A DNA stretch of 39,240 nt from Bacteroidota bacterium (GTDB taxonomy: Bacteria; Bacteroidota; Bacteroidia; Bacteroidales; VadinHA17), in NCBI GenBank assembly GCA_012838685.1, contig DUOU01000136.1:1-39240 (forward strand). The letters are read 5' to 3'. Below the pieces are notes generated by a model. That model did not search any database. It was not told where the DNA came from and saw only the letters and a list, made by a program, of their open reading frames with translations. A program made the translations under genes and the position numbers. Each line of letters starts with the position of its first letter. Position 1 is the stretch's first letter. Below are positions 246 to 27,245 of the stretch, piece after piece.

Positions 246-315
246 AAATCCCACACCGTTTCGAGACTGACGATTCTCGCGCCTCGAAGGTCTCTCTCCG
301 GTGTGGAATTTTTTA
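246..315 (+). terminator. Repeated hairpin element, copy A (intrinsic-terminator-like, downstream of CDS 3-191)
   Basis: Outer arms ATCCCACACCG / CGGTGTGGaAT enclose an inner TTCGAG...CTCGAA stem and are followed by TTTTTTATTT. The element is 57/62 nt identical to the reverse complement of 17213-17274. Confidence 0.6.
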
Positions 316-354
316 TTTATTGAAAAGTAATGTTTTTTATACGAAATCTCAATT

Positions 355-454
355 CACATAAAAAAGATGCCAACTACAAAATAAAAACACCGCTTATAAA
401 ATAAAACAACAGGATACAAAACAAAACGACCATCCACAAAGATATTCTGGAACA
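355..454 (+). repeat. Five phased 20-nt direct repeats (YACAAAAYAAAAC-type), candidate regulator-binding array upstream of the peptide gene
   Basis: The units are cacataaaaaagatgccaac / tacaaaataaaaacaccgct / tataaaataaaacaacagga / tacaaaacaaaacgaccatc / cacaaagatattctggaaca. The array is homologous to 11746-11825. Confidence 0.7.
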
Positions 455-630
455 GCTTCATGACACAAATTAAAATATTCCTGAGATTTGTTTTAATGCA
501 AAGCATGGAAAATGTCCATTAATAACCTTTAAAGTTCTGTTCTATGCTTTTTCGTTGTTGGTAAACCCCAACGACAAAGTGCGCTTAGGCCAAATAATAT
601 GTTTTGTTTTATTAACCAATACTTTTAAAA

Positions 631-876
631 ATGAAAAAAGCGATCAAAATTTTAGGAACTGTTCTTTGCGTTGTTGTGCTGTTTTTAAACCTGTCCATCA
701 ACGGTAAAAATGAGGTGGGCGACACAAGCCTATCCGTGTTGCTGAACAATGCTGATGCCTTGTGTTATGACAATGAATCGTTCCCAATGTGTAACACTGG
801 GAGATGTAACATTTACTCAGAAAATTGTTATCAAGTGTTTAATCCAGAAGGAGACTGTGACCCGACCTACCTTTAA
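631..876 (+). CDS. Small exported Cys-rich peptide precursor, NVEALA-like (81 aa)
   Basis: The N-terminus is MKK plus a hydrophobic segment. An LSVLLNNADAL motif sits where the family has L..ANVEALA. The 37-aa tail has 5 Cys (CYDNESFPMCNTGRCNIYSENCYQVFNPEGDCDPTYL). A hairpin follows the stop codon. Confidence 0.65.
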   Translation: MKKAIKILGTVLCVVVLFLNLSINGKNEVGDTSLSVLLNNADALCYDNESFPMCNTGRCNIYSENCYQVFNPEGDCDPTYL

Positions 877-898
877 TAGTAAATGATTTTAAGGTGGG

Positions 899-919
899 AT
901 TGAAAAGTATTTTCAATCT
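899..919 (+). terminator. Hairpin after the peptide gene
   Basis: GATTGAAAA-gta-TTTTCAATC forms a perfect 9-bp stem, extendable with GGG/CTC wobble pairs. The region downstream is T-rich. Confidence 0.45.
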
Positions 920-1100
920 CGCCTTTTCACTTTTAATTGGTTGTTATGCTATTAAAACTAATTTGTTTAATCGTCTAGTTCATTGGTATAGAAATAAATG
1001 ACATAACAACAGGATTCTAAGCCATTGACTTTTAAATTCAAGTGATAAATGTAACTAAAGAAAAAGAATATTGGAAGTTGACCCCAAATATTTGGATCAA

Positions 1101-1478: not shown

Positions 1479-1735
1479 ATGAATACAGAAGTAAAATTAA
1501 TCAAAAACAAGTTAGAATTATTAAATCTCGCCGAAGAACTTGGCAATGTATCACAGGCTTGTAAGGTTATGGACTACAGCAGAGGCACATTTTATCGTTT
1601 CCGCAAGCTTTATGATAAAGGAGGAGAGCTGGCATTGCGGGAGATTAGCAGGAGGAAGCCGATACTCGGAAATCGTGTGGAAGTTCACATTGAAGAAGCG
1701 GTTATCAGGTTAGCGACTGACAGTCCCCTCCTAGT
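1479..1735 (+). pseudogene. N-terminal HTH fragment of an IS481-like transposase (truncated)
   Basis: MNTEVKLIKNKLELLNLAEELGNVSQACKVMDYSRGTFYRFRKLYDKGGELALREISRRKP..NRVE matches the N-terminus of this transposase type. After about residue 85 the ORF (listed to 1880) becomes low-complexity AT-rich sequence with no integrase core. Confidence 0.55.
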
Positions 1736-1968
1736 TGCAAATATCAAAAATAAAGTATTCTGTGTTTTGAACATAAGACTGACTAAATGCGGTCAAAGCT
1801 TCTATCATTTGCAAATTGATTTGATATTTAGTCACACTTATATGTTAAACTATAGTTTTTTATTTAAAATTGATGCGTAGTTTAGTCCATTTTTTTAACG
1901 GAATTCATCGGTTATTTAAATCTTTATATGGCAAAAATGATTTTTAAAAATGGAATAAAGTCGCAAAC

Positions 1969-3888
1969 GTGAGACGATATTTTCTTTATTGCTTTATGAT
2001 AGCAATAGTGTTGGGTACACCTTTTATATATTCAGGGGATATTTACAACGGTGTAATTACAGCGAAACAAATTTGGTTTTACTGTGCTATGGCTTTGTTA
2101 ATTTTGATATTTGGCTCTGGCCTTATAAACAGGAAAAGCGTTTTATTAGAACTGAATTCCATTGATATCGCACTTATTGTCTTTTACGCCTACTTTCTTA
2201 TACGTGCAGTCTATACTCCTTTTACGCCATTATTATACAATGTACGATTCCTTAATTATTCTCTTCTTTTATTATTCTATTTTATTGTAAAAAATATTGG
2301 AACAAGTTACTATAGTAAAGAGTCGGGAGAGAATAAAAAGAAAATATTATTCTATGAAATTATCATCGACATATTAATAATTACCGGACTAGTTCAAGCA
2401 ATCTGGGGATTATTACAACTTTATGGGGTCTTGCCCAGTTTACATTCAATATTTAAAATTACAGGTACCTTTTCTAATCCGGCGCCTTATGCAATATATC
2501 TGGCTACAATCTTCTTATTAACGCTGGGAAGACTGTTATTAACGCCCTCTTCATCGTTTTCAAAATCTTCCCACTATATTTCTTTTCTCACGATAATCGT
2601 AATTATTTTGATATTGCCCGCAACAATGAACAGGGCTTCATGGGTTGGGGTTGCTGTAGGATCGTTTATCGTACTTAATTACAGGTACGACTTTTTTAGG
2701 AAAATAAGAAAGATTCTGAACAATATGGCAAAAAAACTACTTGCCCTTACTTTTGTTGTATTAATAGTCGGGTTGTCATGTACAGGTTTATATTTGCTCA
2801 AAAAAGGTTCTTCCGATGGGCGTTTGTTGATATGGGAAGTTACATTGGGGAAGATAGCCGAAAAGCCTTTATTTGGTTATGGAGTGGGACGGTTTGAGGC
2901 GGAATACAACAATTGGCAAGCCGATTTTTTTAAATCACACCCAGACGAAATTGACGGCTCCAAAGGTTTGGTGGCGGGAAATACAATGTATTGTTTCAAT
3001 GAATACCTTGAGATGACTTCTGAACTCGGAATTATAGGTCTGTTATTATTTTTGGCTATTATATTATATAGTTTAAAAGAAACTCATAAAAAGGCGACAA
3101 TAATCGCCCCAAAAGATGATAAAAAAAGGACAGATAAGGAATTAATCGCTATCATAAACATTTTGGTTCCTTCTTTTATTGCCCTTCTGGTAATGGCTTT
3201 GATTTCTATTCCCTTTTATTCGTTGCCCACTTTCATTGTTTACTTTTTGATCTTAGCGTTAATTTCTTCAAGTGTTGGATCTATAAAATACAAAAAATTA
3301 AAGGTTTCACAATTTGTCGGTAGCATTGCAAAATTTGGGTCAGTAATAATCATTTTTTCTGCTTCACTTCTCCTTATGTTGAAGGTAAGGCAACAAATTA
3401 TAACTTTTAAAATATGGGATAATGCAATACATATGTATCAGGCAGGCTATATAAAAGAAGCCCGTAAATCATATTCTGATATTTATATTTCATTGAGATA
3501 TAATGGGTCTTTTCTACAGTACTTTGGCAAAGCTCTGAATATTGCTGAAGAATATCCACAAAGTATAGAAATTCTGGAGCAGGCATTGAAATTCACCTCA
3601 GATGAAGTATTATTTACTACGCTTGGTGACAATTATAAAGCCTTAGAACGATATTCTGATGCAGAAAAAGCCTATCAATATGCTTTCTTAATGGCCCCCA
3701 ATAAGTTATATCCTTTATATCTACTTACAAATTTATATTTTGATTCCGGTCAATATCAAAAAGCGATTAAAATAGCTGAAAAAGCTCTAAATAAAAATAT
3801 AAAAGTTGAATCCACTGCAATAAATGAAATGTTACAGGCGATGAATGAAATTATAATAAAGATAAAAAATGAAGAAGAGGTATTTTGA
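1969..3888 (+). CDS. O-antigen ligase/polymerase (Wzy_C) family membrane protein with C-terminal TPR repeats
   Basis: It is polytopic. It has the Wzy_C-type block NRASWVGVAVG...LLIWEVTLGKIAEKPLFGYGVGRF. The C-terminal ~170 aa contain TPR-like repeats (LGDNYKALERYSDAEKAYQYAFLMAPN..., YFDSGQYQKAIKIAEKAL). The listed start is GTG. Confidence 0.75.
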   Translation: MRRYFLYCFMIAIVLGTPFIYSGDIYNGVITAKQIWFYCAMALLILIFGSGLINRKSVLLELNSIDIALIVFYAYFLIRAVYTPFTPLLYNVRFLNYSLLLLFYFIVKNIGTSYYSKESGENKKKILFYEIIIDILIITGLVQAIWGLLQLYGVLPSLHSIFKITGTFSNPAPYAIYLATIFLLTLGRLLLTPSSSFSKSSHYISFLTIIVIILILPATMNRASWVGVAVGSFIVLNYRYDFFRKIRKILNNMAKKLLALTFVVLIVGLSCTGLYLLKKGSSDGRLLIWEVTLGKIAEKPLFGYGVGRFEAEYNNWQADFFKSHPDEIDGSKGLVAGNTMYCFNEYLEMTSELGIIGLLLFLAIILYSLKETHKKATIIAPKDDKKRTDKELIAIINILVPSFIALLVMALISIPFYSLPTFIVYFLILALISSSVGSIKYKKLKVSQFVGSIAKFGSVIIIFSASLLLMLKVRQQIITFKIWDNAIHMYQAGYIKEARKSYSDIYISLRYNGSFLQYFGKALNIAEEYPQSIEILEQALKFTSDEVLFTTLGDNYKALERYSDAEKAYQYAFLMAPNKLYPLYLLTNLYFDSGQYQKAIKIAEKALNKNIKVESTAINEMLQAMNEIIIKIKNEEEVF

Positions 3889-3954
3889 AAAGACAAACCA
3901 TATAAATAAGATAACAGGCCGCAAATATAGTGCCTTTATAAAAATCATTAAACG

Positions 3955-4392
3955 ATGAGAAAAGTCAGTAAAATCGCATGGATATTTTTAGCTTCTTTTG
4001 GGCTACTGGGATTATTGTATTCAGTGTTTTTACTTATCCCTTCCCACATTCATCTGATAGTTAAAAAAACGACCATTGTTTTCGAGACAACCGAATTAGA
4101 TATTGGAGAGATAAACTATAAAGAACCCCGAAAGGCTGAGTTTATTTTTAAGAATACGGGAGGAAATGAACTGATCATATATGATGTCCAACCGTCTTGT
4201 GGATGTACAAATGTAGATTGGACAAGGGAACCGATTAAAAGCGGACAGTCCGGCAAAATAAGTGTTGTTTATGATGCTGAAACAACCGGAAGATTCAATA
4301 AAAGTATAGTAGTTCACTGTAATTGTCACATTGAGAGTATTGTGTTGCAAATTTCAGGGGAGGTTATTGGCAGAGAGAATGAAAGATTTTAA
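3955..4392 (+). CDS. DUF1573 domain protein (membrane-anchored)
   Basis: It has an N-terminal TM segment followed by the hallmark IGEI...FIFKNTGGNELIIYDVQPSCGCT...I.SGQSGKISVVY....GRFNKSIVV. Confidence 0.8.
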   Translation: MRKVSKIAWIFLASFGLLGLLYSVFLLIPSHIHLIVKKTTIVFETTELDIGEINYKEPRKAEFIFKNTGGNELIIYDVQPSCGCTNVDWTREPIKSGQSGKISVVYDAETTGRFNKSIVVHCNCHIESIVLQISGEVIGRENERF

Positions 4393-5254
4393 ACAAGATA
4401 ATAGTATCAAAAAAACACAAGTGCCAATAGAATCTCGAAACGCTTGGCATATTTCTCTTTTAAGGGGCATTGTAATTACCATCTTGATCGGAATATTTTT
4501 ACGTATATTCTTTATAGAGATTTATATGATACCGTCTTCGTCGATGGAACCGACGATTTTATCTGGCGATTTTATTATGGTTAGTAAGATGGCTTACGGG
4601 CCAAGAGTATCAATACCAGAGAAGTTCTTTAAAGAAAATAAGACTGGATACCTACGGATAAAAGGGTGGAACAAAATAAAGTTGGGAGATAAGATTGTAT
4701 TCAATTTTCCCAATTATTCGGTTTCTTTAGATTCTACTTATAAAATCTGGGGAAGGTGTATTGTTAAGCGTTGTTATGGGCTTCCGGGAGATACTGTTTT
4801 AATCAAGAACGAAAAAAGTGGGAACGGAAATATATTGGGCAAAGATGCGACAGATACGCTACAGAAATATAATGTATTCCCTTATGACAGCAACTTGAAA
4901 TGGACCATTGATGATTATGGGCCACTTTATGTCCCCGCTTCTGGTGATGAGGTACAACTAACAAAAAGTACAATTAAAATGTATAAAGATATTTTGCGTT
5001 TTGAGAACCCTAATTGTACAATAACGGACAGTACCATTGTAATAGATGGGGGTCCGCTTTCTCGGTATACTTTTAACTATGACTACTATTTCATGCTTGG
5101 AGATAATTTTTATAATTCGAATGATTCGAGATATTGGGGTTTTTTGCCCGATAGCAATATAATAGGCAAGGTGGTAATGATCCTGTTTTCAGTGGACAAA
5201 AACAAATATGGGTTCAGAAAATTTAGGTTGAACCGGTTATTCAAAATTGTATAG
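4379..5254 (+). CDS. lepB: Signal peptidase I (LepB paralogue)
   Basis: Motifs seen are SSSMEPTILSGD (Ser box), VKRCYGLPGDTV (Lys box) and GDNFYNSNDSRYWGFLP. I take ATG 4379 (MKDFKQ...) as the start rather than 4331. This overlaps the DUF1573 gene by 14 nt. Confidence 0.85.
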   Translation: MKDFKQDNSIKKTQVPIESRNAWHISLLRGIVITILIGIFLRIFFIEIYMIPSSSMEPTILSGDFIMVSKMAYGPRVSIPEKFFKENKTGYLRIKGWNKIKLGDKIVFNFPNYSVSLDSTYKIWGRCIVKRCYGLPGDTVLIKNEKSGNGNILGKDATDTLQKYNVFPYDSNLKWTIDDYGPLYVPASGDEVQLTKSTIKMYKDILRFENPNCTITDSTIVIDGGPLSRYTFNYDYYFMLGDNFYNSNDSRYWGFLPDSNIIGKVVMILFSVDKNKYGFRKFRLNRLFKIV

Positions 5255-5263
5255 AAAAAACAA

Positions 5264-6310
5264 ATGAATAAAACACGATTCATATTATTCTTTTTTGTAT
5301 GGCTAATAATTATTGTTGAGCTTGTTTTACGCACGGCCAGTTATGAGTTGTTGAAGACAAGAAAACTGGAGGCCGATTGGATCGAAGACTCTATAATGGG
5401 ATACCTGCCAAAGCCAAAAACCAGCTTTAATCTTATTGCACCAAACGTTAACAAAGAAATCACAGTGAATGCGTTTGGGTTTTATGATAGTAAAATAAAG
5501 ATCAACAAACAAAGGGGATATTACAGGATCGCTGTATTAGGAAACTCGTATGAAACAGGGCATTTTAGTGAAAGTGTTAAATCTTATCCTGAACTATGCG
5601 ACGATATTTTTAAAAATGAAAGCCATAAAGTTGAATGTTTAAATTTCTCTATTGATGGGGAATATGGTGATTGGTACAGAATAAGGTTAATTGAGAACAA
5701 AATTTTAAAATTTGATCCCGACCTTATTATCTTGAACGTAAAAATGCCTTTTAGTAATCAGATAGTGGTAAAAGAACATTACAAAGGTATAGTAATTGAG
5801 TATGAACAAAACGATGAACAGTCGAGAATTGGATTAAAGAAAAAAATAGATGAAATAGCTACTATTAAACCATTTACCGTTTTATTTGACCTCTCTTTTT
5901 TATTCAGGGGGTTTTGTGTGTTGATGGTTCAAAAGAAAGAAAATATTGGGAATAGGAATAATGGTTTCTGGGAGAAGATCGAAATATATAGAACAAGGAA
6001 ATTATCAGCGGATAATTTGTATAAAAGAGAATTTTCGGAACTCGAAAGTGTCGATATAGTTAACAGATTATTCATTAATCTGGGTGAACAGGACGTAGAA
6101 TTGTGCTTGCTGGACAACAACAGTTTGGATAAATCTTTGTTAAACGAAAACATAAGGTATTTAAAATTAAATTCTTATGGGGGAGAAAAATTTAGCTCAT
6201 CAGTAAATGGCGACAGTTTTGATAAAAATGAAACCATTATGCTGGCTTGGGAACTCTATGAAACTTTGATTGAAACGTATATTCCAGCAAATTATATTGA
6301 TAACAAATAG
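5264..6310 (+). CDS. Membrane-anchored hypothetical protein, possibly an SGNH/GDSL-type esterase or acyltransferase
   Basis: It has an N-terminal TM segment. RIAVLGNSYETG resembles SGNH block I (GDS replaced by GNS), and FSIDGEYG resembles block II. The rest is not recognisable. Confidence 0.4.
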   Translation: MNKTRFILFFFVWLIIIVELVLRTASYELLKTRKLEADWIEDSIMGYLPKPKTSFNLIAPNVNKEITVNAFGFYDSKIKINKQRGYYRIAVLGNSYETGHFSESVKSYPELCDDIFKNESHKVECLNFSIDGEYGDWYRIRLIENKILKFDPDLIILNVKMPFSNQIVVKEHYKGIVIEYEQNDEQSRIGLKKKIDEIATIKPFTVLFDLSFLFRGFCVLMVQKKENIGNRNNGFWEKIEIYRTRKLSADNLYKREFSELESVDIVNRLFINLGEQDVELCLLDNNSLDKSLLNENIRYLKLNSYGGEKFSSSVNGDSFDKNETIMLAWELYETLIETYIPANYIDNK

Positions 6311-6325
6311 CATATTTAAGGTACT

Positions 6326-7849
6326 ATGGAAAGAAATTTGAGATCAAATCAGATATTAATATACTTATACATCATAATTACATCGGGGTATTTGATCTGG
6401 AGAACTGTTTTTTCATTGAACATGGATCAGCCAATCGCCTCTGGATTGTTCCTAGCCGCCGATATAATCACGGGAGTTTCTTCAATAATTTTTGTTTTCT
6501 CCTTTTTGAAAGGAGAAAAGGTCTTTTCAGAACCTGTTTTAAGGCATAAGCTTACGGTTGATGTCTTTATACCTACGTTCAATGAAGATGTAAGCATTCT
6601 GAGAGAAACAATTTCCCATTGCGTGGGCATGGATTACCAACATAAAACTTATGTTTTAGATGATGGTAATAGGGAAGAAGTAAGGGTTTTAGCCGAGAAA
6701 CTGGGGGCACAATATATATCGCGCACAGTTAATGAAGACGCCAAAGCTGGTAACCTGAACAATGCATTGGGTAAAACAAGTGGCAATATTATTGCTGTTT
6801 TCGATGCCGATTTTGTTCCTGAGAAGAATTTTATAGTAAAACTTATAGGTTACTTCAATGATGATAAGGTCGCAATAGTTCAGTCCCCCCAATTTTATTA
6901 TAACAGCAACAGTTTTCAGCACAGGAAATTGTTCGGTAAAAAAACATACAATGATCAAGACACCTTTCTCCATATGGTTTTGCCGGCAAGAGCTGACTGG
7001 AACGCCGCTTATTGGATCGGAACAAACGCTCTTATGCGCCGAGAAGCTATTCTATCGATAGGCGGGTTTCCGACAGAATCGGTTACTGAGGACATACTTA
7101 CAAGTATTTATATTCATTCTAAAGGTTGGAACTCGGTATATGTAGATGAACCATTGGCATTTGGATTGGCCCCGACAAATATTTCGCAATATTATACTCA
7201 GAGACTGAGATGGGCGAAAGGTGCTTTTCAAATTTTTCGTAAGAAGAACCCGTTATTTGTTAATGGGTTGTCTTACGTCCAGAGAATGTTTTATTTCTCT
7301 TCTTTATTGCATTTTTTCGAAGGCGCTATTAAGTTAGTTTACTTTGTTTTTCCCGCCTTGTTTTTCATTTTCAAAGTAGTTCCAATAAATACCTCCCCAT
7401 ATGTTATAATCAATATGGTAATATATTTTATTATGGGCCGTATACTTATTTCGGTGATCACAAGGGACAAAACAAACATTTTTTATGATGAAATCTACGC
7501 TGTTATACGCTCGTTTATATATCTGATGGGATTTTCCGCCCTTTTTACGAATAAGAAAATCAGTTTTGCCGTTACACCAAAAAACAATGAATCAAACATC
7601 GGGATAATCAATTTCTTTGGGCCTCTGTCTATTTGTACCTTGAACTTTGTTGTATTAGTCTCGGCAACAATAAATCCTTCCATCATATTAAAGGAAAGTA
7701 TCTTAAATCTGGTCTGTTTTGCATGGTGCATATCTCTGCTAATAAAATCGTCGATAGCCTGCTATTATTGTTTTTCAACTCCATATGACAGCGGCCTCAC
7801 TATTAATGATCAGATTCGATCCAATAAGTCTCTAATAAAAAGAACATGA
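6326..7849 (+). CDS. Processive family-2 glycosyltransferase, cellulose-synthase-like (BcsA-type core, no PilZ domain)
   Basis: Motifs seen are PTFNED, VLDDG, AGNLNNAL, VFDADF, QSPQ, TEDILTS and QRLRWAKG (QxxRW). TM segments flank the catalytic core. At 507 aa the protein ends without a PilZ module. Confidence 0.85.
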   Translation: MERNLRSNQILIYLYIIITSGYLIWRTVFSLNMDQPIASGLFLAADIITGVSSIIFVFSFLKGEKVFSEPVLRHKLTVDVFIPTFNEDVSILRETISHCVGMDYQHKTYVLDDGNREEVRVLAEKLGAQYISRTVNEDAKAGNLNNALGKTSGNIIAVFDADFVPEKNFIVKLIGYFNDDKVAIVQSPQFYYNSNSFQHRKLFGKKTYNDQDTFLHMVLPARADWNAAYWIGTNALMRREAILSIGGFPTESVTEDILTSIYIHSKGWNSVYVDEPLAFGLAPTNISQYYTQRLRWAKGAFQIFRKKNPLFVNGLSYVQRMFYFSSLLHFFEGAIKLVYFVFPALFFIFKVVPINTSPYVIINMVIYFIMGRILISVITRDKTNIFYDEIYAVIRSFIYLMGFSALFTNKKISFAVTPKNNESNIGIINFFGPLSICTLNFVVLVSATINPSIILKESILNLVCFAWCISLLIKSSIACYYCFSTPYDSGLTINDQIRSNKSLIKRT

Positions 7850-10113
7850 AAATTATGGACCTAACGCTCGATTACGTCTATTTTTGTGCCATTATGTGTT
7901 TATACATGTGGGATACTAAGTTTCTTCCTTCCCCCTTGTATTTGGGGAAGCTAAGAAACAGAACAAGGTATTTTTCAAGACTGAAGTGCCTAAGACAAAG
8001 ATTCCTAATAAGAACCTCCTTAATAATTATTCCTTTTCTTTTATTCGGTTGTACAATACAATCGGATACTGAATTCCATATTGAACTACCAGAAATCACA
8101 TTACCTTTTGAGCTTGATGAAATTATTGAAGTTAAAGATTGGATAGCATTGGGCCCTTTTTCCTTTAACACACGAAAACAGGCTCCACAGAATACGTTTC
8201 TTAACGAAGATCTTGTTAAATACAAAATAGATGAGGATAATTTCCTATATGACGATATTAGTAAGATAAACAGAAAGGATTTGGCTCCTTTCATGATTAG
8301 CCAAACAAACGGCTTTATCAAGTTGTTTGATTATGCGGGAGAGATGATTGAAGATAAGAGTAATTTTTATTTATGTAGCTCTATTTTTAGTCCTATTGAA
8401 AGAGAAGTTACCTTAATTGTCGATGGTTCGAATAGTTACAAATTATGGTTTAATCAACAGACTATTTTGAATGTTACGAGGAAACATAATACAAACAAAG
8501 TTGGGGATCGCTTTGTGAATGTCAAATTAAAAAAAGGTTCAAACCTTTTGTTCGTAAAAGTTAACAGGGGAAGCAATGTGAAATCGTGGGGATTTGTTTT
8601 GGGAATATCTTCCGTTTCGAAAGCTAAAGAAGTATACATAAACAATTATTTTAGCGATTTTATTCAGAATCCGATAATAACGGATTCGATCCAAATCTAT
8701 ACTGGGCCATATTCAGATTGCGAAATTCAAATAATGGACGAAGGAAATAATCTTATTATTAAAGATACTGTTACACCCTATAATATTAATGTTGCCGATG
8801 CTAATTTTACGGTTTCAGGATTAAGTACCCTTGAAAATGGTTTTTACAATTGCAGGCTTTACTTCGCAGAAGATTCGATTGAGGAGTTTTTTTATAAAGG
8901 GAACTATATAGATTTAATAGAGAAAATAGATACTGATATAAGGGATCTAGAAATAAGCGAGAAAGAGAAAAATGATCTTCAGGCAGGTTTACAGAGAGTC
9001 TCTTTTTTATCCAACGAGGAAGTCAGTGATTTTTCATCGAGTGAGATACGAATTTTGAACAAAAACCGTGTTTATTGGGCCAAGGCCATAAAAGAATCAG
9101 TTTCCTATGCCGAGACGACTAAAAGCTTAAGAGGAATTGCCGGAACCTCCTTGAGAACCTATACTTCAAACAAAAGTGACCGAATTTATCACTTTGTTTT
9201 TCACGTGGGTAATAATGTATTATTAAAACCAAAGATTCCTTTGATTATAGCTGTTCCTTATGCATTAGAGGGAGAGTCTATGACAGAAGACTGGTATTTA
9301 AGCAATCTTGACCAGATTGAAATAGATAATAAAATGGCGGATGATCACGGATTCGCCATCGTCTGGGTTTATATGGGAGGGAAAAGTTACACTCCTCAGA
9401 TCGGAAGAGAAGATGTTATAAGTGTTATCGAAAGGATTCGAGAAAGTTATGATATAGATACCACTCAAATATATGTACTGGGAGATTGTGAGGGAGGAAG
9501 AAGGGCATTGTTATTGGTTGAGAGGAATCCTGATCTTTTTAGTGGCATTGCTGTAACCTCACCAATAACTTCTTTTGATTACTGGAATGAGGCTCCAATC
9601 AACTATGTTGAAAATTTATATAATGTGCCCATAGTTATTGAACATGGGGAAAACGATGAGGTATCGACGGTCGAAAATTCAAGACAATTTGTGGCCGATG
9701 CGTTAAATTCGGGCTATTCCCCGAAATATATAGAGACTAAAAATAGTCATTTAACTTTTTCTAAGGATTATAGAAGATACGCTTTCATTTTTTTCGATAG
9801 TATTAATAATGTCAAAAAAAATGATCCCCCAGAAATAATTAAATACAGCACTTTGGAAGCTGGTTCCCTTTCTGTCTATTGGATTGAAATAAACAAAATA
9901 GATTCTTTTTCTAGAGCCACAATAATTGCCAAATATAATTCAAATAGTAATGTTTTTAATATTGATTACCAGAACTTAGACTCTTACAAAATTTTGTCGG
10001 ACAAGCTCAAACTAACCAAAGATACATATGTAACAGTATGTACAAACGATACGCTTATATTCAAAGGAAATCTTGAAGAAACGAAAGTATTCTCACATAT
10101 CCGGAACAATTGA
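7846..10113 (+). CDS. Putative lipoprotein with a jelly-roll-like middle region and a C-terminal alpha/beta-hydrolase (dienelactone-hydrolase-like) domain
   Basis: It has an IIIPFLLFGC lipobox-like signal. The C-terminus carries YVLGDCEGG (nucleophile elbow with Cys), EHGENDEVS and NSH. Its ATGA start overlaps the stop of the GT2 gene. The true start is uncertain because a long N-terminal extension precedes the signal. Confidence 0.6.
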   Translation: MKIMDLTLDYVYFCAIMCLYMWDTKFLPSPLYLGKLRNRTRYFSRLKCLRQRFLIRTSLIIIPFLLFGCTIQSDTEFHIELPEITLPFELDEIIEVKDWIALGPFSFNTRKQAPQNTFLNEDLVKYKIDEDNFLYDDISKINRKDLAPFMISQTNGFIKLFDYAGEMIEDKSNFYLCSSIFSPIEREVTLIVDGSNSYKLWFNQQTILNVTRKHNTNKVGDRFVNVKLKKGSNLLFVKVNRGSNVKSWGFVLGISSVSKAKEVYINNYFSDFIQNPIITDSIQIYTGPYSDCEIQIMDEGNNLIIKDTVTPYNINVADANFTVSGLSTLENGFYNCRLYFAEDSIEEFFYKGNYIDLIEKIDTDIRDLEISEKEKNDLQAGLQRVSFLSNEEVSDFSSSEIRILNKNRVYWAKAIKESVSYAETTKSLRGIAGTSLRTYTSNKSDRIYHFVFHVGNNVLLKPKIPLIIAVPYALEGESMTEDWYLSNLDQIEIDNKMADDHGFAIVWVYMGGKSYTPQIGREDVISVIERIRESYDIDTTQIYVLGDCEGGRRALLLVERNPDLFSGIAVTSPITSFDYWNEAPINYVENLYNVPIVIEHGENDEVSTVENSRQFVADALNSGYSPKYIETKNSHLTFSKDYRRYAFIFFDSINNVKKNDPPEIIKYSTLEAGSLSVYWIEINKIDSFSRATIIAKYNSNSNVFNIDYQNLDSYKILSDKLKLTKDTYVTVCTNDTLIFKGNLEETKVFSHIRNN

Positions 10114-11321: not shown

Positions 11322-11720
11322 ATGAGCAAGATGATTTTTTTGGATACTTCGGGGAAAATGCTTCATTATAATTCTAACAAAGCACCCGTTTCAATACGAA
11401 TAGAAGACGTTCTTTTCATTAAAGGGGACGGAAGTTATGTTGAGATTTATGTCGAGGAGAAAACAAAAACCATCTTGGTTCCCTGCCTTTTGCGTTACAT
11501 GGAGGAATTATTGAAAGATAATGATTTTATAAGGTGCCACAACTCATGGTTAGTTAACCTAAATAAAATTGATGCATTTTGTAAAAATGAAATGATGTTG
11601 ATAGTGTCACAATACGTAATTCCTATTTCAAGAAGGGGATGGAAAAACACGAAATGGATATTAGCCGACAGTGGTATTGAGTTTGTTAAAGAAATAAAAT
11701 CCGGTTTAACCAATCTTTGA
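11322..11720 (+). CDS. Stand-alone LytTR-domain DNA-binding protein (no receiver domain)
   Basis: VSIRIEDVLFIKGDGSYVEIYVEEK......LLRYMEELLKDNDFIRCHNSWLVNLNKI......IPISRR fits the LytTR pattern (I.y.e..g.Y..i........l..le..L....F.R.HrS.iVNl..I). It is only 132 aa. Confidence 0.8.
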   Translation: MSKMIFLDTSGKMLHYNSNKAPVSIRIEDVLFIKGDGSYVEIYVEEKTKTILVPCLLRYMEELLKDNDFIRCHNSWLVNLNKIDAFCKNEMMLIVSQYVIPISRRGWKNTKWILADSGIEFVKEIKSGLTNL

Positions 11721-11745
11721 TAAGTCTAAATCTAAAAATGTCGAT

Positions 11746-11825
11746 CACAAAATAAAACGACAGGGCACAAAATAAAACGACAGGATACAAAACAAAAAGA
11801 CCAACTACAAAAAAGATTCAAGAAT
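11746..11825 (+). repeat. Four phased 20-nt direct repeats, starting 26 nt after the LytTR stop codon
   Basis: The units are cacaaaataaaacgacaggg / cacaaaataaaacgacagga / tacaaaacaaaaagaccaac / tacaaaaaagattcaagaat. The first two are 19/20 identical. The array is homologous to 355-454. Confidence 0.75.
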
Positions 11826-11998
11826 AGCTTCTTGGCAAGGAGCAAAATATTTCTGAAATTTGTCTTGAAGATAAACATGGAGGGTGCCCCTAATGACCTT
11901 TAAAAGTTCTGTTTTAGATCGGTTTGTTGTCGAGAAACCCCGAGGGTAAAAAATCGAACAATATATTCTTGCTTCGTTGGCCAATACTTTTAAAAAAG

Positions 11999-12207
11999 AT
12001 GAAAAAAACGATCTAAGTTTTAGAAATTGTTCTTTGCGCCGTTGAGTTGTTTTTAATCTATCGATAAACGGTAAAAGTAGTGCGGGCGACATGAGTTTAT
12101 CTACATTGCCGAACAAGGTTGACACTGAATGTGAAGAAGATGACCTGACGATAATGAACGATAGGGAATGCTATGAATTATCAGGTAAATTATTTTTGGA
12201 ATCCTAA
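11999..12207 (+). pseudogene. Disrupted paralogue of the 631-876 peptide gene
   Basis: It has the same ccaatacttttaaaaa..ATGAAAAAA start context. Codon 6 is TAA where the intact copy has AAA. The homologous ...LSINGK... segment continues in another frame and reads to TAA at 12205-12207, so there is also a frameshift. A residual ATG ORF at 12091-12207 would give 38 aa. Confidence 0.6.
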
Positions 12208-12304
12208 TCATTCATAATGTAACCTGACCTTATTTTAATGATTGAAAATTTAGTCGGAGGTGTGAAATATTTCCATTCCTAATTTTTTATTTTATCAGAT
12301 TTCT

Positions 12305-13486
12305 ATGTTTTTAAAACTATCCAATATATTTTTAGTGATACTATTGTTCACAGCATGTACGAGCATTGTCAAGGTAGAAAACGAAATGTCAGGCAATTTG
12401 GAAGCTTCTATGGGATTAGTTGAGATAGGAGAAAGAGCCTTTTTATTAGATGACAGTACAGCCCCAAAACCGATATACACACAAATGTTTAAAAACTATA
12501 ACGGGGCTAAATATCTTACGTTTCTGAATAAATTTAACAACTCGATCTATTTTTATGATTATGACTCTCTCCAATTTGTAAAAAAGATCGTTTGGCCCAA
12601 GAACGGTCCCAAAGGGATCGGCGCCGCTACGGGCTATCATGTCAAATCTTTGGATTCTATCTATATTTACAATAAAAGCAACATTGAAATTGTCCTTTCA
12701 AATGAAAAAAGCATGGTTCTGGACAGAATTACTCTTTGTGGCAACAGAAAAGATATTAACTGGTTATTTAGATACCCACAATATGATCCCCGAACTGTCA
12801 AACCTTTTATAGAGACCGCTCACGAGCTTTTGCTGACTGGTTTTTATTTTGGATCAATACCTGAATCTATCGTTTCGGATTTCAAATTTACCGCCCGTCT
12901 TGATTTTAAAACGAACGGTGTAGCTTTTAGTCATACATATCCACTCTCGTTGTACGGTTTTGGTTATAACTGGGAAGGGGATCTGTTTACTGAAGTTTAT
13001 AGCGATCTTCATCCAGATGGCGACAAGTTGATACTAAGTTTTCCCGTTTCTCATGATTTGTACATAGCAGACTTGAAAACTGGGGAATACCAAAAGACTT
13101 ATGCAGGAAGTAATTTTGCCAGCACAATCTCATCAATCAATAAAAAGCTAAAGCGCAGTTCAAAAAATGATTTGTTATTGAATATCGTTGTTCAAGATGA
13201 ATATACGGCCATCAAGTACGATAAATACCGAAATGTTTATTACAGGTTTTTATTGAAGTCAATTCCAGTAAACATAAAAAGTGTAGATTGGAAAGAAAAG
13301 CCAATAGCAGTTATTATTTTTGATGAAAATTTCAACTATTTAGGTGAAACCGTCATCGGTACTGGAGAAAACTGGTATTGGCAAAATTCTTTCGTTACCG
13401 AAGAAGGGCTGAACATTGAATATATCGACAATGATCTTGAGGAAAAATACCTCAGATTCAGAATATTTGTGGTTCAAAATCTATAA
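12305..13486 (+). CDS. DUF4221-like lipoprotein (predicted beta-propeller family linked to NVEALA loci)
   Basis: It has the lipobox LLFTAC. The block YLTFLNKFNNSIYFYDYDSLQFVKKIVWPKNGPKGIG matches my recollection of DUF4221. It is 393 aa. Confidence 0.55.
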   Translation: MFLKLSNIFLVILLFTACTSIVKVENEMSGNLEASMGLVEIGERAFLLDDSTAPKPIYTQMFKNYNGAKYLTFLNKFNNSIYFYDYDSLQFVKKIVWPKNGPKGIGAATGYHVKSLDSIYIYNKSNIEIVLSNEKSMVLDRITLCGNRKDINWLFRYPQYDPRTVKPFIETAHELLLTGFYFGSIPESIVSDFKFTARLDFKTNGVAFSHTYPLSLYGFGYNWEGDLFTEVYSDLHPDGDKLILSFPVSHDLYIADLKTGEYQKTYAGSNFASTISSINKKLKRSSKNDLLLNIVVQDEYTAIKYDKYRNVYYRFLLKSIPVNIKSVDWKEKPIAVIIFDENFNYLGETVIGTGENWYWQNSFVTEEGLNIEYIDNDLEEKYLRFRIFVVQNL

Positions 13487-13496
13487 AATCAACTTC

Positions 13497-13961
13497 ATGA
13501 AATATTTTAATATATTTTTTATTATTGTAATACTGTTAATTACAGGATCATGTCAAAAAAAAGCGCATAAAATTGAGAAGAACAACATAATCAAGGCGAT
13601 GGAACAAATGGATGTGGGAGACAACGTGAGTTGGATCGTTATATTGCCTGGTTTAGGCTGCACTGGCTGTATCCAGGAAGCCGAGGTCTTCATGAAAGAT
13701 CATATTAACAACGAGGAGATACTGTTCGTTTTAACAAAAATTTCTTCCCTGAAAATTTTGCAACAAAAAATGGGGATTCAGATAAAAGATTATCAAAATG
13801 TAATTATAGATGCGGGAAATGAATTCGACGTTCGGACCGAAAACAACATATACCCCTGCATTGTCCAATTAAAAACCGGCAAAATTGTGAGACATGAATT
13901 TCAATCTCCACAAAACTCAAATGCTTTTGGAAGACTTAAAGGTATGACATCAGGACAATAG
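13497..13961 (+). CDS. Small lipoprotein with a CxxC motif (possible thioredoxin-fold thiol-disulfide oxidoreductase)
   Basis: I take the start at M28 of the listed ORF (MKYFNIFFIIVILLITGSC, a lipobox). WIVILPGLGCTGCIQEAEVF places a CxxC after a beta-strand, as in thioredoxin-like proteins. Confidence 0.5.
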   Translation: MKYFNIFFIIVILLITGSCQKKAHKIEKNNIIKAMEQMDVGDNVSWIVILPGLGCTGCIQEAEVFMKDHINNEEILFVLTKISSLKILQQKMGIQIKDYQNVIIDAGNEFDVRTENNIYPCIVQLKTGKIVRHEFQSPQNSNAFGRLKGMTSGQ

Positions 13962-18360: not shown

Positions 18361-18384
18361 ATTTTATGGGTTTAATGGTTAATC

Positions 18385-19926: not shown

Positions 19927-19962
19927 GGTCCATTCTTTTTTGTTTTTGTGATAAGGCCCCTA

Positions 19963-20556: not shown

Positions 20557-20599
20557 ATTTTTTAATCTATCGGCTTTTAAGGAAGCCCGTTGTTTATTG

Positions 20600-22000: not shown

Positions 22001-22053
22001 TTTTTGTTTTATCGTGCGGCTCCTCCGGGTTGGGACTCGCCACTGGCGTTAAA

Positions 22054-23547: not shown

Positions 23548-23681
23548 TATCGTTTTAATAAAATTTTAATAAAAACCGCCATTGATTCAGGGAAGTCGCG
23601 GAAGGGCAGTCCGAAAAAACGCCCTTCCGGCTTCCGGTGATACAACTATTCACGGGACAATCCCGTATTAAAACCTACAGT

Positions 23682-24731: not shown

Positions 24732-24827
24732 ATTAAAAATTTTTAAGTGTATATTATTATGTTAATAGTTTAATCTCTTTTTAATCGCTTTTTGGATATC
24801 GCTTTTACCGACCCCGCGAATATATTA

Positions 24828-25394: not shown

Positions 25395-25503
25395 AATATA
25401 ATTTTGGTTTTAATGGTATGATGGAACCGCGCATGATTGAAAATTATATTCATTACCTGTTTGTGATTCGCGAAATCATGAGGGTTTTCATCTTCTTAAA
25501 TTT

Positions 25504-27216: not shown

Positions 27217-27245
27217 GCTATATCTTTATCTGGTTGTTTCTATTT

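What the first reader, a model, noticed from the sequence alone, without database searches (positions are those of the whole stretch)
355..630. Two homologous ~280-nt upstream regions with 20-nt phased direct repeats (355-630 and 11746-11998)
Both peptide-gene copies are preceded by the same non-coding architecture. First comes an array of 20-nt units beginning YACAAA, five units at 355-454 and four at 11746-11825. Both arrays share the identical core ggatacaaaacaaaa. Then come conserved blocks (acctttaaa(a)gttctgtt and ccaatacttttaaaaa), and finally the ATG. I estimate roughly 70% identity by eye. Twenty nt is close to two helical turns, which places successive sites on one face of the DNA. 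Retention of a long non-coding leader between diverged paralogues argues for function, either as a promoter/operator or as a structured 5' UTR.
Basis: seen in the sequence. Interest (0 to 1): 0.7.

Follow-up and report, generated by a model that had tools for sequence, protein, structure and literature searches.

The report
LytTR operator arrays before peptide promoters
The two repeat-bearing upstream regions are real paralogous control regions, each with four evenly spaced probable binding sites for the neighbouring LytTR-type regulator in front of a Bacteroidota-type promoter; this is a familiar Gram-positive design found here in an uncharacterised Bacteroidota/Ignavibacteria peptide gene cluster.

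Summary
Window 355-630 and 11746-11998 are homologous (66% of all alignment columns, 79% of ungapped ones, far above shuffles). Each carries a 20-nt phased direct-repeat array found nowhere else in the 39 kb.

The best reading is a LytTR operator plus promoter, not a structured RNA.
- A stand-alone LytTR gene (11322-11720) ends 18 nt before array 2.
- All 9 LytTR genes of this small subfamily whose downstream DNA could be read have a four-unit, 20-nt array at or over the stop codon. One of these contigs ends inside the array. The set includes an Ignavibacteriaceae MAG.
- In the eight arrays followed by enough sequence, a -33/-7 promoter comes next, then a variable leader. Where the contig reaches further, Cys-rich secreted peptide and/or beta-propeller genes follow.
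- Unit positions 3-11 (ACCrnTTAC) match the published 9-bp LytTR Regulatory System (LRS) direct repeat.
- The array is the best conserved non-coding segment (75-89%). The leader is 62-272 nt long and largely unalignable.

Differences from known LytTR sites are four boxes rather than two, an 11-bp spacer, and a proximal box about 22 bp from -33. The arrays also lie downstream of the regulator gene.

The copy-2 peptide gene is a pseudogene. Binding, the transcription start and activation are all inferred. I rate it a new variant of a known kind, of moderate interest.

The parts
251..318 (+). Terminator-like hairpin plus U-run that ends the upstream beta-propeller gene. It insulates array 1 from upstream transcription.
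   Evidence: Fold energy -28.3 kcal/mol, z = -4.0. The upstream gene is DUF4933/DUF5128/DUF4934 in L009.
367..446 (+). Array 1: four 20-nt units. Probable LytTR boxes at 369-377 GCCAACTAC, 389-397 ACCGCTTAT, 409-417 ACAGGATAC and 429-437 ACCATCCAC, each followed by an 11-nt A-rich spacer. A marginal fifth unit lies at 347-366.
   Evidence: The leave-one-out matrix gives 64 bits. A matrix built only from published LRS boxes, scanned for four hits at period 20, gives 19.4 bits, the top site in the window (shuffle maximum 14.9).
459..490 (+). Predicted sigma-A promoter 1: -33-like CATG (459-462), a 20-nt spacer, and -7-like GAGATTTG (483-490). The predicted start is near 495.
   Evidence: The same elements sit at the same distance from the array in 10 loci. 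The consensus TTTG/TAnnTTTG with G at -5 comes from PMC6847099 and PMC9723704. The start site is inferred, not mapped.
495..630 (+). Predicted 5' leader 1 (about 136 nt). It includes a small hairpin at 554-575 and the A-rich translation start region at 613-630.
   Evidence: It is conserved only among close relatives and is partly deleted in L017/L018.
631..876 (+). Gene for an 81-aa secreted Cys-rich peptide precursor: an N-terminal hydrophobic leader, an ADA (AxA-type) motif, and a 6-Cys core.
   Evidence: No Pfam or NCBIfam family matches.
891..925 (+). Terminator-like hairpin after the peptide gene.
   Evidence: fold z = -5.1.
11322..11720 (+). Stand-alone LytTR-domain regulator (132 aa, no receiver domain). 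It is the proposed trans-acting factor for both arrays.
   Evidence: Pfam PF04397, E = 7e-17. AlphaFold model pLDDT 91.5. Foldseek matches ComE and AgrA LytTR domains, TM 0.81-0.83 normalised to the AgrA LytTR-domain targets, rmsd 2.0 A. It is the only LytTR gene in the window.
11738..11817 (+). Array 2: four 20-nt units. Boxes at 11740-11748 GTCGATCAC, 11760-11768 ACAGGGCAC, 11780-11788 ACAGGATAC and 11800-11808 ACCAACTAC.
   Evidence: 58 bits leave-one-out. The match to the literature LRS matrix is weak (-0.2).
11831..11862 (+). Predicted promoter 2: CTTG (11831-11834), a 20-nt spacer, and GAAATTTG (11855-11862). The predicted start is near 11867.
   Evidence: Inferred as for promoter 1.
11867..11998 (+). 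Predicted leader 2 (about 132 nt).
   Evidence: 66% identical to leader 1. No stable fold, z = +0.8.
11999..12238 (+). Pseudogene of a second peptide precursor. It has a stop at codon 6, a frameshift and further stops.
   Evidence: Identical in strain contigs L001, L004, L005 and L008.
12305..13961 (+). DUF4221 beta-propeller gene (12305-13486) and a gene for a 154-aa protein with an N-terminal signal or lipoprotein-like segment and a CxxC motif (13497-13961). These are the likely surviving cargo of promoter 2.
   Evidence: There is no convincing terminator between the pseudogene and 12305. Co-transcription is inferred.
1969..5254 (+). Context genes that travel with the module in relatives: the Wzy_C+TPR polytopic membrane protein (1969-3888), DUF1573 (3955-4392) and the S26 signal peptidase (4331-5254).
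   Evidence: Wzy_C-TPR homologues lie directly upstream of LytTR in L025, L050 and L056. S26 peptidase genes occur in L025, L048 and L054.

Best explanation
Each region is one copy of a transcription-control module. The parts, in order, are:
- four phased operator boxes (a 9-12-bp box ACC-N4-ACAAA inside a 20-bp unit), spanning about -128 to -49;
- a weak Bacteroidota sigma-A promoter (-33-like C[A/T]TG, 20 nt, -7-like GAnATTTG);
- a leader of about 135 nt that is not under strong constraint;
- an A-rich, Shine-Dalgarno-less translation start.

The stand-alone LytTR protein encoded at 11322-11720 is proposed to bind the four boxes cooperatively, probably as two dimers. It would then activate transcription of the Cys-rich secreted peptide gene (copy 1). 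At copy 2 it would drive the dead peptide gene and, through it, the DUF4221 propeller and CxxC-lipoprotein genes.

Shown here: the anatomy, its conservation, the match to published LytTR boxes, and the linkage to LytTR genes. Inferred: binding, the transcription start sites, activation rather than repression, and the input signal.
For: 1. Linkage. A LytTR gene ends 18 nt before array 2. All nine LytTR genes of this subfamily with readable downstream DNA have the array at or over the stop codon: the window, L024, L025 (two genes), L047, L048, L050, L052 and L056, whose contig ends inside the array. In relatives the array overlaps the coding end by 13-38 nt. More distant LytTR genes (L029-L045, L054/55) have none.

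2. Box identity. The family unit consensus is cGACCrnttACAAArtAwww. Positions 3-11 equal the published LRS direct repeat ACCACTTAC / ACCGCTTAT / ACCAGTTAT (PMC6193735). A matrix built only from 43 published boxes scores +4.4 bits in exactly that register and -2 to -18 in the other 19. It ranks array 1 first in the window. Orientation relative to the promoter is the same as in published systems.

3. Position. The arrays sit at a fixed distance from a conserved -33/-7 promoter in 9 of 10 loci, and one helical turn further upstream in the tenth. The window's -7 boxes lack the near-invariant T at -12, as expected for activator-dependent promoters (PMC6847099).

4. Constraint. Array identity to copy 1 is 75-89% in every relative, including an Ignavibacteriaceae MAG whose LytTR is 50% identical. 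The leader is 41-49% identical in three of the four relatives (78% in L024) and the peptide coding sequence 51-77%. The conserved positions are G/C and specific A positions in an AT-rich background.

5. Uniqueness. Phased matches occur only at arrays in 617,472 scanned positions (both strands of all held sequence), always on the gene strand.

6. Trans action. Array 1 has no adjacent LytTR gene, and the window holds only one. Both arrays share unit sequences, as expected for one factor acting at two promoters.

7. The protein has the LytTR fold.
Against: - There are no binding or expression data of any kind. The transcription starts are predicted only.
- The window's own boxes match the LRS consensus poorly, apart from ACCGCTTAT at 389-397. 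Array 2 scores -0.2 with the literature matrix.
- In this lineage the best conserved part of the unit (ACAAAAYAAAA) extends into what would be spacer in an LRS site.
- The period is 20 bp, not the usual 21. There are four boxes, not two.
- The proximal box ends about 22 bp from the -33 element, not about 10 bp (32 bp in L052).
- Synteny alone cannot exclude another factor that binds the array.
- No array lies upstream of the LytTR gene itself, so the autoregulation that defines LRS is not seen.
- In some relatives (L025a) the promoter is near consensus, so activator dependence is not general.
- In several relatives the first one or two units are also coding sequence for the LytTR C-terminal tail. 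Part of their conservation could therefore be protein-level.
Confidence: 0.7

Rival explanations
1. The arrays are operator sites, but for a different DNA-binding protein, for example a response regulator encoded elsewhere in the genome. The adjacent LytTR gene is then only a syntenic neighbour or another target.
For: Nothing here shows binding. The window's boxes are weak matches to the literature LRS matrix. Spacing, copy number and distance to the promoter all differ from described LytTR sites.
Against: Adjacency of array and LytTR gene is 9 of 9 across organisms whose LytTR proteins are only 24-70% identical. Distant family members carry textbook LRS boxes (ACCGCTTAC, ACCAGTTAT, ACCACTTAC). 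No other DNA-binding protein gene is conserved in the neighbourhood.
Confidence: 0.12
2. The conserved upstream region works mainly as RNA, that is, as a structured 5' UTR, riboswitch or attenuator controlling the peptide gene.
For: The leaders are long (62-272 nt). L024's leader folds well (z = -3.5). A small hairpin (554-575) is shared by copy 1 and L024.
Against: The arrays lie upstream of the conserved -33/-7 promoter. There is no Rfam match, even at E <= 1. Folding z-scores are -1.6 for copy 1, +0.8 for copy 2 and +0.3 for L017. L017/L018 lack about 70 nt including the hairpin. The leaders of L047 and L025 are unalignable. The L024 extended helix is not preserved in copy 1.
Confidence: 0.06
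3. The repeats act without a specific protein. Phased A-tracts (AAAAYAAAA every 20 bp) would give intrinsic curvature, or an UP-element-like contact for RNA polymerase upstream of the promoter.
For: In the window lineage the A-rich half of each unit is the best conserved. The region is 31-35% GC against 43% for the whole window. The position is upstream of the promoter.
Against: Across the family, information peaks at C4, C5, A10 and C11, not at the A/T run. The run degenerates to mixed A/T in L048, L050 and L052. A 20-bp period drifts about 34 degrees per unit relative to 10.5 bp per turn. This reading does not explain the strict co-occurrence with LytTR genes. It could be a contributing feature, because LytTR proteins bend DNA.
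Confidence: 0.07
4. The arrays are iterons or arm-type sites of a replicon or mobile element rather than transcription signals.
For: Direct repeats of 20 nt in phased arrays are typical of iterons. A loose three-unit pattern found four unrelated perfect 20-nt arrays in viral contigs. The array-peptide module occurs in three different flanking contexts. IS fragments lie nearby (L023).
Against: No rep, integrase or partition gene is associated. The units are imperfect. The arrays sit at a fixed distance from a promoter and in a fixed orientation to the downstream genes in all loci. The neighbourhood is chromosomal and includes a leu/ilv operon.
Confidence: 0.02

Closest known systems
LytTR Regulatory Systems (LRS) of Streptococcus mutans and relatives: HdrR/HdrM and BrsR/BrsM (PMC6193735)
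   Same: Both have a stand-alone LytTR regulator of about 130-150 aa without a receiver domain. Both use imperfect direct repeats of the ACCnCTTAY type on the sense strand upstream of the promoter. Targets include small secreted peptide (bacteriocin) genes.
   Different: LRS sites are two 9-bp repeats with a 12-bp spacer (a minority have 11 or 13), lying 4-11 bp upstream of -35. Here there are four boxes, an 11-bp spacer, and about 22 bp to the -33 element. LRS repeats lie upstream of the regulator's own operon and give autoregulation, and a small membrane inhibitor gene follows the regulator. Here the arrays lie downstream of the regulator gene, and no such inhibitor gene follows it. The phylum also differs: Bacteroidota/Ignavibacteria rather than mostly Firmicutes.
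Bacteroides 'LRS-like' operons (B. thetaiotaomicron Btheta7330_RS19920/RS19915 and B. ovatus), described in PMC6193735
   Same: Both are in Bacteroidota and use a -33/-7 promoter (TGTA-19 bp-TATCTTTG). The direct repeats begin with (A/T)CCG and have an 11-bp spacer. A membrane protein is encoded upstream of the LytTR regulator, as with the Wzy_C-TPR gene in L025, L050 and L056.
   Different: Those regulators carry transmembrane segments, and their partner has NfeD and DUF2154 domains. They have two 11-bp repeats (period 22), 11 bp from the promoter and upstream of the operon itself. Here the regulator is soluble, there are four boxes at period 20, and the arrays precede the downstream peptide and propeller genes.
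Peptide-pheromone and bacteriocin regulons driven by LytTR response regulators: AgrA P2/P3, ComE, PlnC/PlnD, BlpR and VirR boxes (my own knowledge; structures 3BS1, 4XQJ and 4CBV matched)
   Same: A LytTR domain recognises pairs of direct repeats at a period of about 21-22 bp just upstream of promoters for secreted peptides. The predicted fold of the window protein superposes on AgrA and ComE LytTR domains (rmsd 2.0 A to the AgrA LytTR-domain chains, 3.1-5.0 A to full-length ComE).
   Different: Those regulators have a phospho-receiver domain and a cognate histidine kinase. None is present here. Box sequence, copy number and spacing also differ.

Membership tests
LytTR-family operator (direct-repeat binding site of a LytTR-domain regulator) | A LytTR-domain DNA-binding protein is encoded with or next to the site | tested here: met
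   Pfam PF04397, E = 7e-17 for 11322-11720. The model matches AgrA and ComE LytTR domains. In 9 of 9 subfamily genes the array is at or over the stop codon.
LytTR-family operator (direct-repeat binding site of a LytTR-domain regulator) | Imperfect direct repeats of about 9 bp separated by 12-13 bp (period 21-22) | tested here: inconclusive
   The units are direct repeats. The period is strictly 20 (a 9-bp box plus 11 bp) in all 10 arrays, and there are four boxes. PMC6193735 lists an 11-bp spacer as a minority case.
LytTR-family operator (direct-repeat binding site of a LytTR-domain regulator) | The box sequence fits the LRS-type consensus ACC(A/G)CTTA(C/T) | tested here: met
   The literature-only matrix is positive in a single register (+4.4 bits, against -2 to -18 elsewhere). 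Array 1 is the top site in the window. Caveat: array 2 alone is not significant (-0.2), and only 389-397 ACCGCTTAT is a full match in the window.
LytTR-family operator (direct-repeat binding site of a LytTR-domain regulator) | The repeats lie immediately (4-11 bp) upstream of the -35 element | tested here: not met
   The proximal box ends 21-23 bp before the -33-like TTG, and 32 bp before it in L052. That is one or two helical turns further upstream than described.
LytTR-family operator (direct-repeat binding site of a LytTR-domain regulator) | Specific binding by the regulator (EMSA or footprint) | not testable with these tools
   This needs purified protein.
LytTR Regulatory System (LRS) sensu PMC6193735 | A soluble stand-alone LytTR regulator without a receiver domain | tested here: met
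   The protein is 132 aa with a single LytTR domain at residues 24-111. No hydrophobic segment was seen by eye in the sequence (alignment); no hydropathy or transmembrane scan was run on this protein.
LytTR Regulatory System (LRS) sensu PMC6193735 | A membrane inhibitor gene co-transcribed immediately downstream of the regulator | tested here: not met
   Downstream come the array, the promoter and the peptide (pseudo)gene. A polytopic Wzy_C-TPR gene lies directly upstream in L025, L050 and L056 but 7.4 kb away in the window. Whether it is an inhibitor is unknown.
LytTR Regulatory System (LRS) sensu PMC6193735 | Direct repeats upstream of the regulator's own operon promoter (positive autoregulation) | tested here: not met
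   No array or phased match lies upstream of 11322 or of the 1969-11168 gene cluster. Only read-through from promoter 1 could link them, and that is untested.
Bacteroidetes sigma-A promoter (-33 TTTG / -7 TAnnTTTG) | -7 box TAnnTTTG with a -33 TTTG about 19-21 bp upstream | tested here: inconclusive
   Window: CATG-20 nt-GAGATTTG and CTTG-20 nt-GAAATTTG. That is 5 of 6 key -7 positions, with T at -12 replaced by G. Relatives have TAATTTTG, TAATTTCG and TATCTTTC at the same place. The consensus is from PMC6847099 and PMC9723704. No start-site data exist.
Riboswitch or other structured cis-regulatory RNA | A match to a known RNA family, or a conserved and stable secondary structure in the leader | tested here: not met
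   No Rfam hit at gathering threshold or at E <= 1. Folding z-scores are -1.6, +0.8, -3.5 and +0.3. The leader is deleted or replaced in relatives.
Iterons of a plasmid or phage origin | An array of 17-22-bp direct repeats next to a rep gene and an AT-rich unwinding element | tested here: not met
   No replication, partition or integrase genes occur in the window or the related loci. The array is tied to a promoter and to gene orientation.

The most novel reading that the evidence does not exclude
The arrays are the cis element of an undescribed regulatory and secretion system in Bacteroidota and Ignavibacteria. In this reading a soluble LytTR regulator is held in check by, or signalled through, the Wzy_C-TPR polytopic membrane protein encoded next to it. 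It then switches on, through four-box 20-bp operators, a family of secreted Cys-rich peptides. Those peptides would be processed at an AxA site by a dedicated S26 signal peptidase and oxidised by a CxxC lipoprotein, with a beta-propeller partner. That would amount to a peptide-based cell-cell signalling or bacteriocin circuit in a phylum where such circuits are essentially unknown. In most members the operator also doubles as the coding sequence for the regulator's own C-terminal tail.
Probability: 0.3. Interest if true: 0.7.

Novelty: new variant of a known kind. Interest (0 to 1): 0.5.

Why it matters
LytTR regulators with direct-repeat operators control competence, virulence and bacteriocin production in Firmicutes. 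Their targets in Bacteroidota are almost unknown.

This analysis gives a concrete, testable operator for a small subfamily of stand-alone LytTR proteins. The box is ACC-N4-ACAAA, present four times at a 20-bp period, about 22 bp upstream of a -33/-7 promoter. It links that operator to an uncharacterised conserved gene set: Cys-rich secreted peptides, a beta-propeller, a CxxC lipoprotein, an S26 peptidase and a Wzy_C-TPR membrane protein. The set is found in biogas-reactor Bacteroidota and in Ignavibacteria.

The operator can be used to define the regulon in metagenome-assembled genomes. It could also serve as an inducible promoter part. It shows that LytTR site architecture is more flexible than the two-box, 21-bp rule.

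The result does not overturn anything. It extends a known design to a new lineage and a new cargo.

Tried and rejected
- Rfam, whole window at gathering threshold and 300-950 at E <= 1: nothing in either region.
- Leader folding and a three-way leader alignment: no consistent structure.
- Sigma-70 consensus scan: only chance-level hits. It is not informative for Bacteroidota promoters.
- Same-strain contigs L001-L016: identical to the window, so they have no comparative value.
- Genome contigs and metagenome-contig scans with the LytTR alignment: they returned the Ignavibacteriaceae MAG plus LytTR proteins at about 28-35% identity over the domain (two short-segment hits at 43% and 56%). Tandem Repeats Finder was run on six of those loci and found no period-20 array. 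The phased matrix scan found none in any of them. The window's own MAG is apparently not in those collections.
- Viral-contig scan with a loose three-unit pattern: four unrelated perfect 20-nt tandem arrays without LytTR genes. The bare pattern is therefore not diagnostic.
- P0019 loci (L054/L055, a more distant 107-aa LytTR): they have a similar peptide, propeller and S26 neighbourhood but no array of this type.
- Search for a second LytTR gene or a remnant upstream of array 1: none.
- Search for an array upstream of the LytTR gene or of the 1969-11168 cluster, to test for autoregulation: none.
- Sigma-54 and ECF-type readings of the conserved ACAGCCTC|TTGACA block: rejected by eye because the required -24/-12 or GGAAC/CGT elements are absent.
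- Literature searches for NVEALA, for DUF4221/DUF4933 together with LytTR, and for LytTR with Bacteroidota and bacteriocin: no description of this system.
- Tandem Repeats Finder misses the arrays of L048 and L050 because the units are too diverged. Those two rest on the shared register and the leave-one-out matrix.
Full report
**1. The observation**

Reading the two regions and aligning them confirms that 355-630 and 11746-11998 are homologous. A global alignment gives 191 identical positions in 288 columns (66%; 79% of ungapped columns). The score is 96, against -156 +/- 19 for shuffles and -210 +/- 25 for random pieces of the window.

Tandem Repeats Finder reports period-20 arrays at 375-427 and 11746-11801, and no other period-20 array in the 39 kb. 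The core YACAAAAYAAAAC with at most one mismatch occurs only at the six strong units. The shared string GGATACAAAACAAAA and both conserved blocks are present.

Three corrections apply:
- Each array has four units.
- The biologically meaningful register begins 8 nt earlier, at 367-446 and 11738-11817.
- The second peptide gene is a pseudogene (ATG 11999, TAA at codon 6, then a frameshift and stops). It is fixed in all sampled strain contigs.

**2. Surroundings**

The window is a contig from a metagenome-assembled genome annotated 'Bacteroidota/Bacteroidales bacterium'. Matching contigs come from biogas-fermenter metagenomes.

Copy 1 is a self-contained unit:
- a terminator-like hairpin ending the upstream DUF4933/5128/4934 beta-propeller gene (251-318, z = -4.0);
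- array 1, a promoter-like block and a leader;
- an 81-aa Cys-rich secreted peptide gene (631-876);
- a second terminator-like hairpin (891-925, z = -5.1).

Copy 2 starts 18 nt after the stop codon of a 132-aa protein (11322-11720). That protein consists only of a LytTR DNA-binding domain (Pfam E = 7e-17). Its AlphaFold model (pLDDT 91.5) superposes on the AgrA and ComE LytTR domains (target-normalised TM 0.81-0.83 and rmsd 2.0 A against the AgrA LytTR-domain chains). It is the only LytTR gene in the window.

Downstream of the dead peptide gene lie a DUF4221 beta-propeller gene, a gene for a 154-aa protein with an N-terminal signal or lipoprotein-like segment and a CxxC motif, and an MG2-domain protein gene. 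Between the two copies lie genes for a Wzy_C+TPR polytopic membrane protein, DUF1573, an S26 signal peptidase, a GT2 glycosyltransferase, an alpha/beta hydrolase and a GH5 cellulase.

**3. Relatives**

The peptide has only five homologue clusters at 65-79% identity.
- L024 shows a LytTR gene, then the array, then the peptide gene.
- L017/L018 keep the array and promoter but lack about 70 nt of the leader.
- L023 has an IS110 element upstream instead of the array.

Searches with the LytTR protein and then with a LytTR profile found a small subfamily. A HMMER scan of 1.84 billion representatives gave only 8 clusters at E <= 1e-30.

Every member whose downstream DNA I could fetch shows the same layout. 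That is nine LytTR genes: the window, L024, L025 (two genes), L047, L048, L050, L052 and L056. In L056 the contig ends inside the array, so only the start of the array is seen there. One of these organisms is an Ignavibacteriaceae MAG whose LytTR is only 50% identical. The layout is:
- the LytTR gene;
- a four-unit 20-nt array, which starts 13-38 nt before the stop codon in relatives;
- 13-14 nt, then (C)TTG(ACA), 20 nt, then (T/G)AnnTT(T/C)G;
- a leader of 62-272 nt in the lineage closest to the window, and longer in the more distant relatives;
- in loci that extend that far, one or two Cys-rich small secreted proteins with an AxA(D/E) motif (the second L025 array leads directly to a propeller gene with no peptide gene called between);
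- a beta-propeller gene and a CxxC signal-bearing protein gene, often with an S26 peptidase gene.

Wzy_C-TPR homologues sit directly upstream of the LytTR gene in L025, L050 and L056. More distant LytTR genes at roughly 30% identity (L029-L045) and L054/55 have no such array.

**4. What the unit is**

Anchoring ten arrays on the -33-like TTG puts them in one register. The refined unit consensus is cGACCrnttACAAArtAwww. C4, C5, A10, C11 and A12-14 are nearly invariant, and the total is 18.5 bits.

Positions 3-11 (ACCrnTTAC) coincide with the 9-bp direct repeats published for LytTR Regulatory Systems (PMC6193735, Tables 2-3). Published examples are:
- HdrR: ACCTCTTAG-12-ACCACTTAA;
- BrsR: ACCACTTAT-12-ACCGCTTAT;
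- many species: ACCACTTAC and ACCAGTTAT.

I built a weight matrix from 43 of those published boxes, independent of my own data. It scores +4.4 bits on average in exactly that register and -2 to -18 in the other nineteen. When four hits at period 20 are required, the best site on either strand of the window is array 1 (19.4 bits; shuffle maximum 14.9). Array 2 is not significant by that matrix (-0.2).

Leave-one-out matrices trained on other organisms recover both window arrays (64 and 58 bits). They also recover every other array as the top sites of their loci, and the next unrelated hits score below 0. Across all held sequence (617,472 scanned positions, both strands), phased matches occur only at arrays and always on the gene strand.

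The A-rich part is largely the spacer. In this subfamily, however, the conserved box extends 3' to ACAAA.

**5. Promoter and leader**

The block after the array fits the Bacteroidetes sigma-A promoter. The consensus is -33 TTTG and -7 TAnnTTTG, with T-12, A-11, T-8 to T-6 and G-5 nearly invariant (PMC6847099 and PMC9723704).
- Window copy 1: CATG-20 nt-GAGATTTG (459-490).
- Window copy 2: CTTG-20 nt-GAAATTTG (11831-11862).
- Relatives have TAATTTTG, TAATTTCG or TATCTTTC at the same place.

With G at -5, the predicted starts are near 495 and 11867. That places the box centres near -62, -82, -102 and -122. Both window promoters lack T at -12, and copy 1 also has G at -10. These features suit activator dependence.

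The leader is not a conserved RNA:
- there is no Rfam hit;
- folding z-scores are -1.6, +0.8, -3.5 and +0.3;
- the leader is partly deleted in L017/L018 and unalignable in L047 and L025.

Against copy 1, the array is 75-89% identical in every relative. The leader is 41-49% identical in three of the four relatives (78% in L024, the closest) and the peptide coding sequence 51-77%. The block ccaatacttttaaaaa is the A-rich, Shine-Dalgarno-less initiation region expected in this phylum (PMC6847099).

Similarity between the two window copies is itself weak evidence of function, because the dead ORF is as similar as the leader.

**6. Mechanism**

The best-supported mechanism is that the stand-alone LytTR protein binds four phased boxes upstream of a weak sigma-A promoter and activates it. 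One regulator would serve both promoters in trans, since array 1 has no adjacent LytTR gene and the two arrays share unit sequences.

Promoter 1 drives the peptide gene. Promoter 2 probably still drives the propeller and CxxC genes, because no good terminator follows the pseudogene.

The anatomy, the conservation, the box match and the linkage are shown. Binding, the start sites, the direction of regulation and the signal are inferred. The Wzy_C-TPR membrane protein is a candidate partner, by analogy with LRS membrane inhibitors and with the Bacteroides 'LRS-like' operons, where the membrane protein gene precedes the regulator (PMC6193735). That analogy is only a lead.

**7. Rivals**

- Another DNA-binding protein uses the array (0.12).
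- The region acts as a structured leader RNA (0.06).
- Protein-independent curvature or an UP-like element (0.07; possibly a contributing feature).
- Iterons or mobile-element sites (0.02).

A loose pattern scan of viral contigs returned four unrelated perfect 20-nt arrays without LytTR genes. This shows that the pattern alone is not diagnostic.

**8. Comparison with the known**

It works like a LytTR/LRS-controlled bacteriocin or pheromone promoter. As for membership:
- LytTR fold: met.
- Direct repeats of LRS type: met at family level, weaker in the window.
- Usual 21-bp period: not met (20 bp).
- Two boxes: not met (four).
- Proximity of 4-11 bp to the promoter: not met (about 22 bp).
- Downstream membrane inhibitor and autoregulatory repeats upstream of the regulator, which define LRS: not met.

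It should therefore not be filed as an LRS. It is a new variant of LytTR operator architecture, in a lineage and gene context for which I found no description.

**9. Verdict**

The feature is real, well above chance, and functional by comparative evidence. The promoter/operator reading is supported and the RNA reading is not. Novelty: a new variant of a known kind. Interest 0.5.

Noticed in passing
window 11999-12238: The second peptide-precursor gene is a pseudogene, with a stop at codon 6, a frameshift and further stops. Its array and promoter are nevertheless as well preserved as those of copy 1. The sequence is identical in five strain contigs.
   Followed up: yes
L024 511-528; L025 6422-6444 and 9548-9585; L048 661-698; L050 911-939; L052 672-684: In relatives the first one or two operator units overlap the 3' end of the LytTR coding sequence. 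They encode its C-terminal tail (for example ...ANKIFRPQTK* and ...LPNTK*, with ACAAAATAA read as Thr-Lys-stop). The regulator's tail and its own probable binding site are therefore the same DNA. In the window the gene stops 18 nt before the array.
   Followed up: partly
window 452-459 and 11824-11831; all related loci: The 8 nt immediately 5' of the -33-like TTG (ACAGCCTC; ACAGCTTC and ATAGCTTC in the window) are conserved across all organisms. This is more than a sigma-A -33 element would require, and it is unexplained.
   Followed up: no
L025 9109-9186, 9784-9814 and 6622-6646; L052 about 830-960; L050 about 1130-1160: The leaders and the region upstream of the second LytTR gene in the Ignavibacteria-type loci carry many AATGAC(A/C)-type repeats. 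One is an 11-nt tandem, ATTCAATGGTC x7 (reverse strand GACCATTGAAT), 46 nt before the LytTR start. The window leaders have a single TAAT(A/G)ACC, at 520-528 and 11891-11899.
   Followed up: no
L017 2-2365 and 2447-2877; L018 15-3029: A third array-promoter-peptide module (peptide P0006, 65% identical) sits between two MG2-domain genes that are 95-97% identical to window 13993-16404. The module therefore occurs in at least three flanking contexts in closely related genomes.
   Followed up: partly
window 13497-13961; L025 8284-8739; L048 2845-3480; L052 2860-3417; L054 4639-5220: The 150-210-aa proteins that follow the beta-propeller genes have an N-terminal signal or lipoprotein-like segment and a conserved CxxC motif. 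They may be thioredoxin-like oxidoreductases for the Cys-rich peptides. None matches a Pfam or NCBIfam family.
   Followed up: partly
window 1969-3888; L025 3920-6004; L050 2-457; L056 1-1812: A Wzy_C (O-antigen-ligase-like) polytopic membrane protein with C-terminal TPR repeats is encoded directly upstream of the LytTR gene in three relatives, with a 4-nt overlap in L025. In the window it is separated from the LytTR gene by 7.4 kb of polysaccharide-related and peptidase genes. It is a candidate sensory partner.
   Followed up: partly
window 1479-1880 (within the AT-rich gap 930-1968): A 133-aa ORF has only HTH_29, HTH_28 and HTH_23 domains and resembles the N-terminal part of a transposase. 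It lies between the peptide gene and the Wzy_C-TPR gene and is probably an IS remnant.
   Followed up: partly
window 35739-36962 and 37136-38374: Tandem paralogous DUF4249 genes (72-79% nucleotide identity over 131-300-nt blocks) lie beside a divergently oriented protein with a CarboxypepD_reg domain and a TonB-dependent-receptor Plug domain (32086-34860).
   Followed up: partly
window 17302-29069 (minus strand): A complete leu/ilv biosynthesis cluster contains two LeuA-like genes (18385-19926 and 22054-23547). A tRNA gene lies at 30907-30980 (minus strand).
   Followed up: no
L057 9000-9051; L058 7405-7456; L059 19-70; L060 9819-9870: Viral contigs hold perfect 20-nt tandem arrays (for example ATTATACCGCAAATATAAAT x3) that match a loose version of the unit pattern. 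No LytTR gene is nearby, so these are probably unrelated iteron-like repeats.
   Followed up: partly
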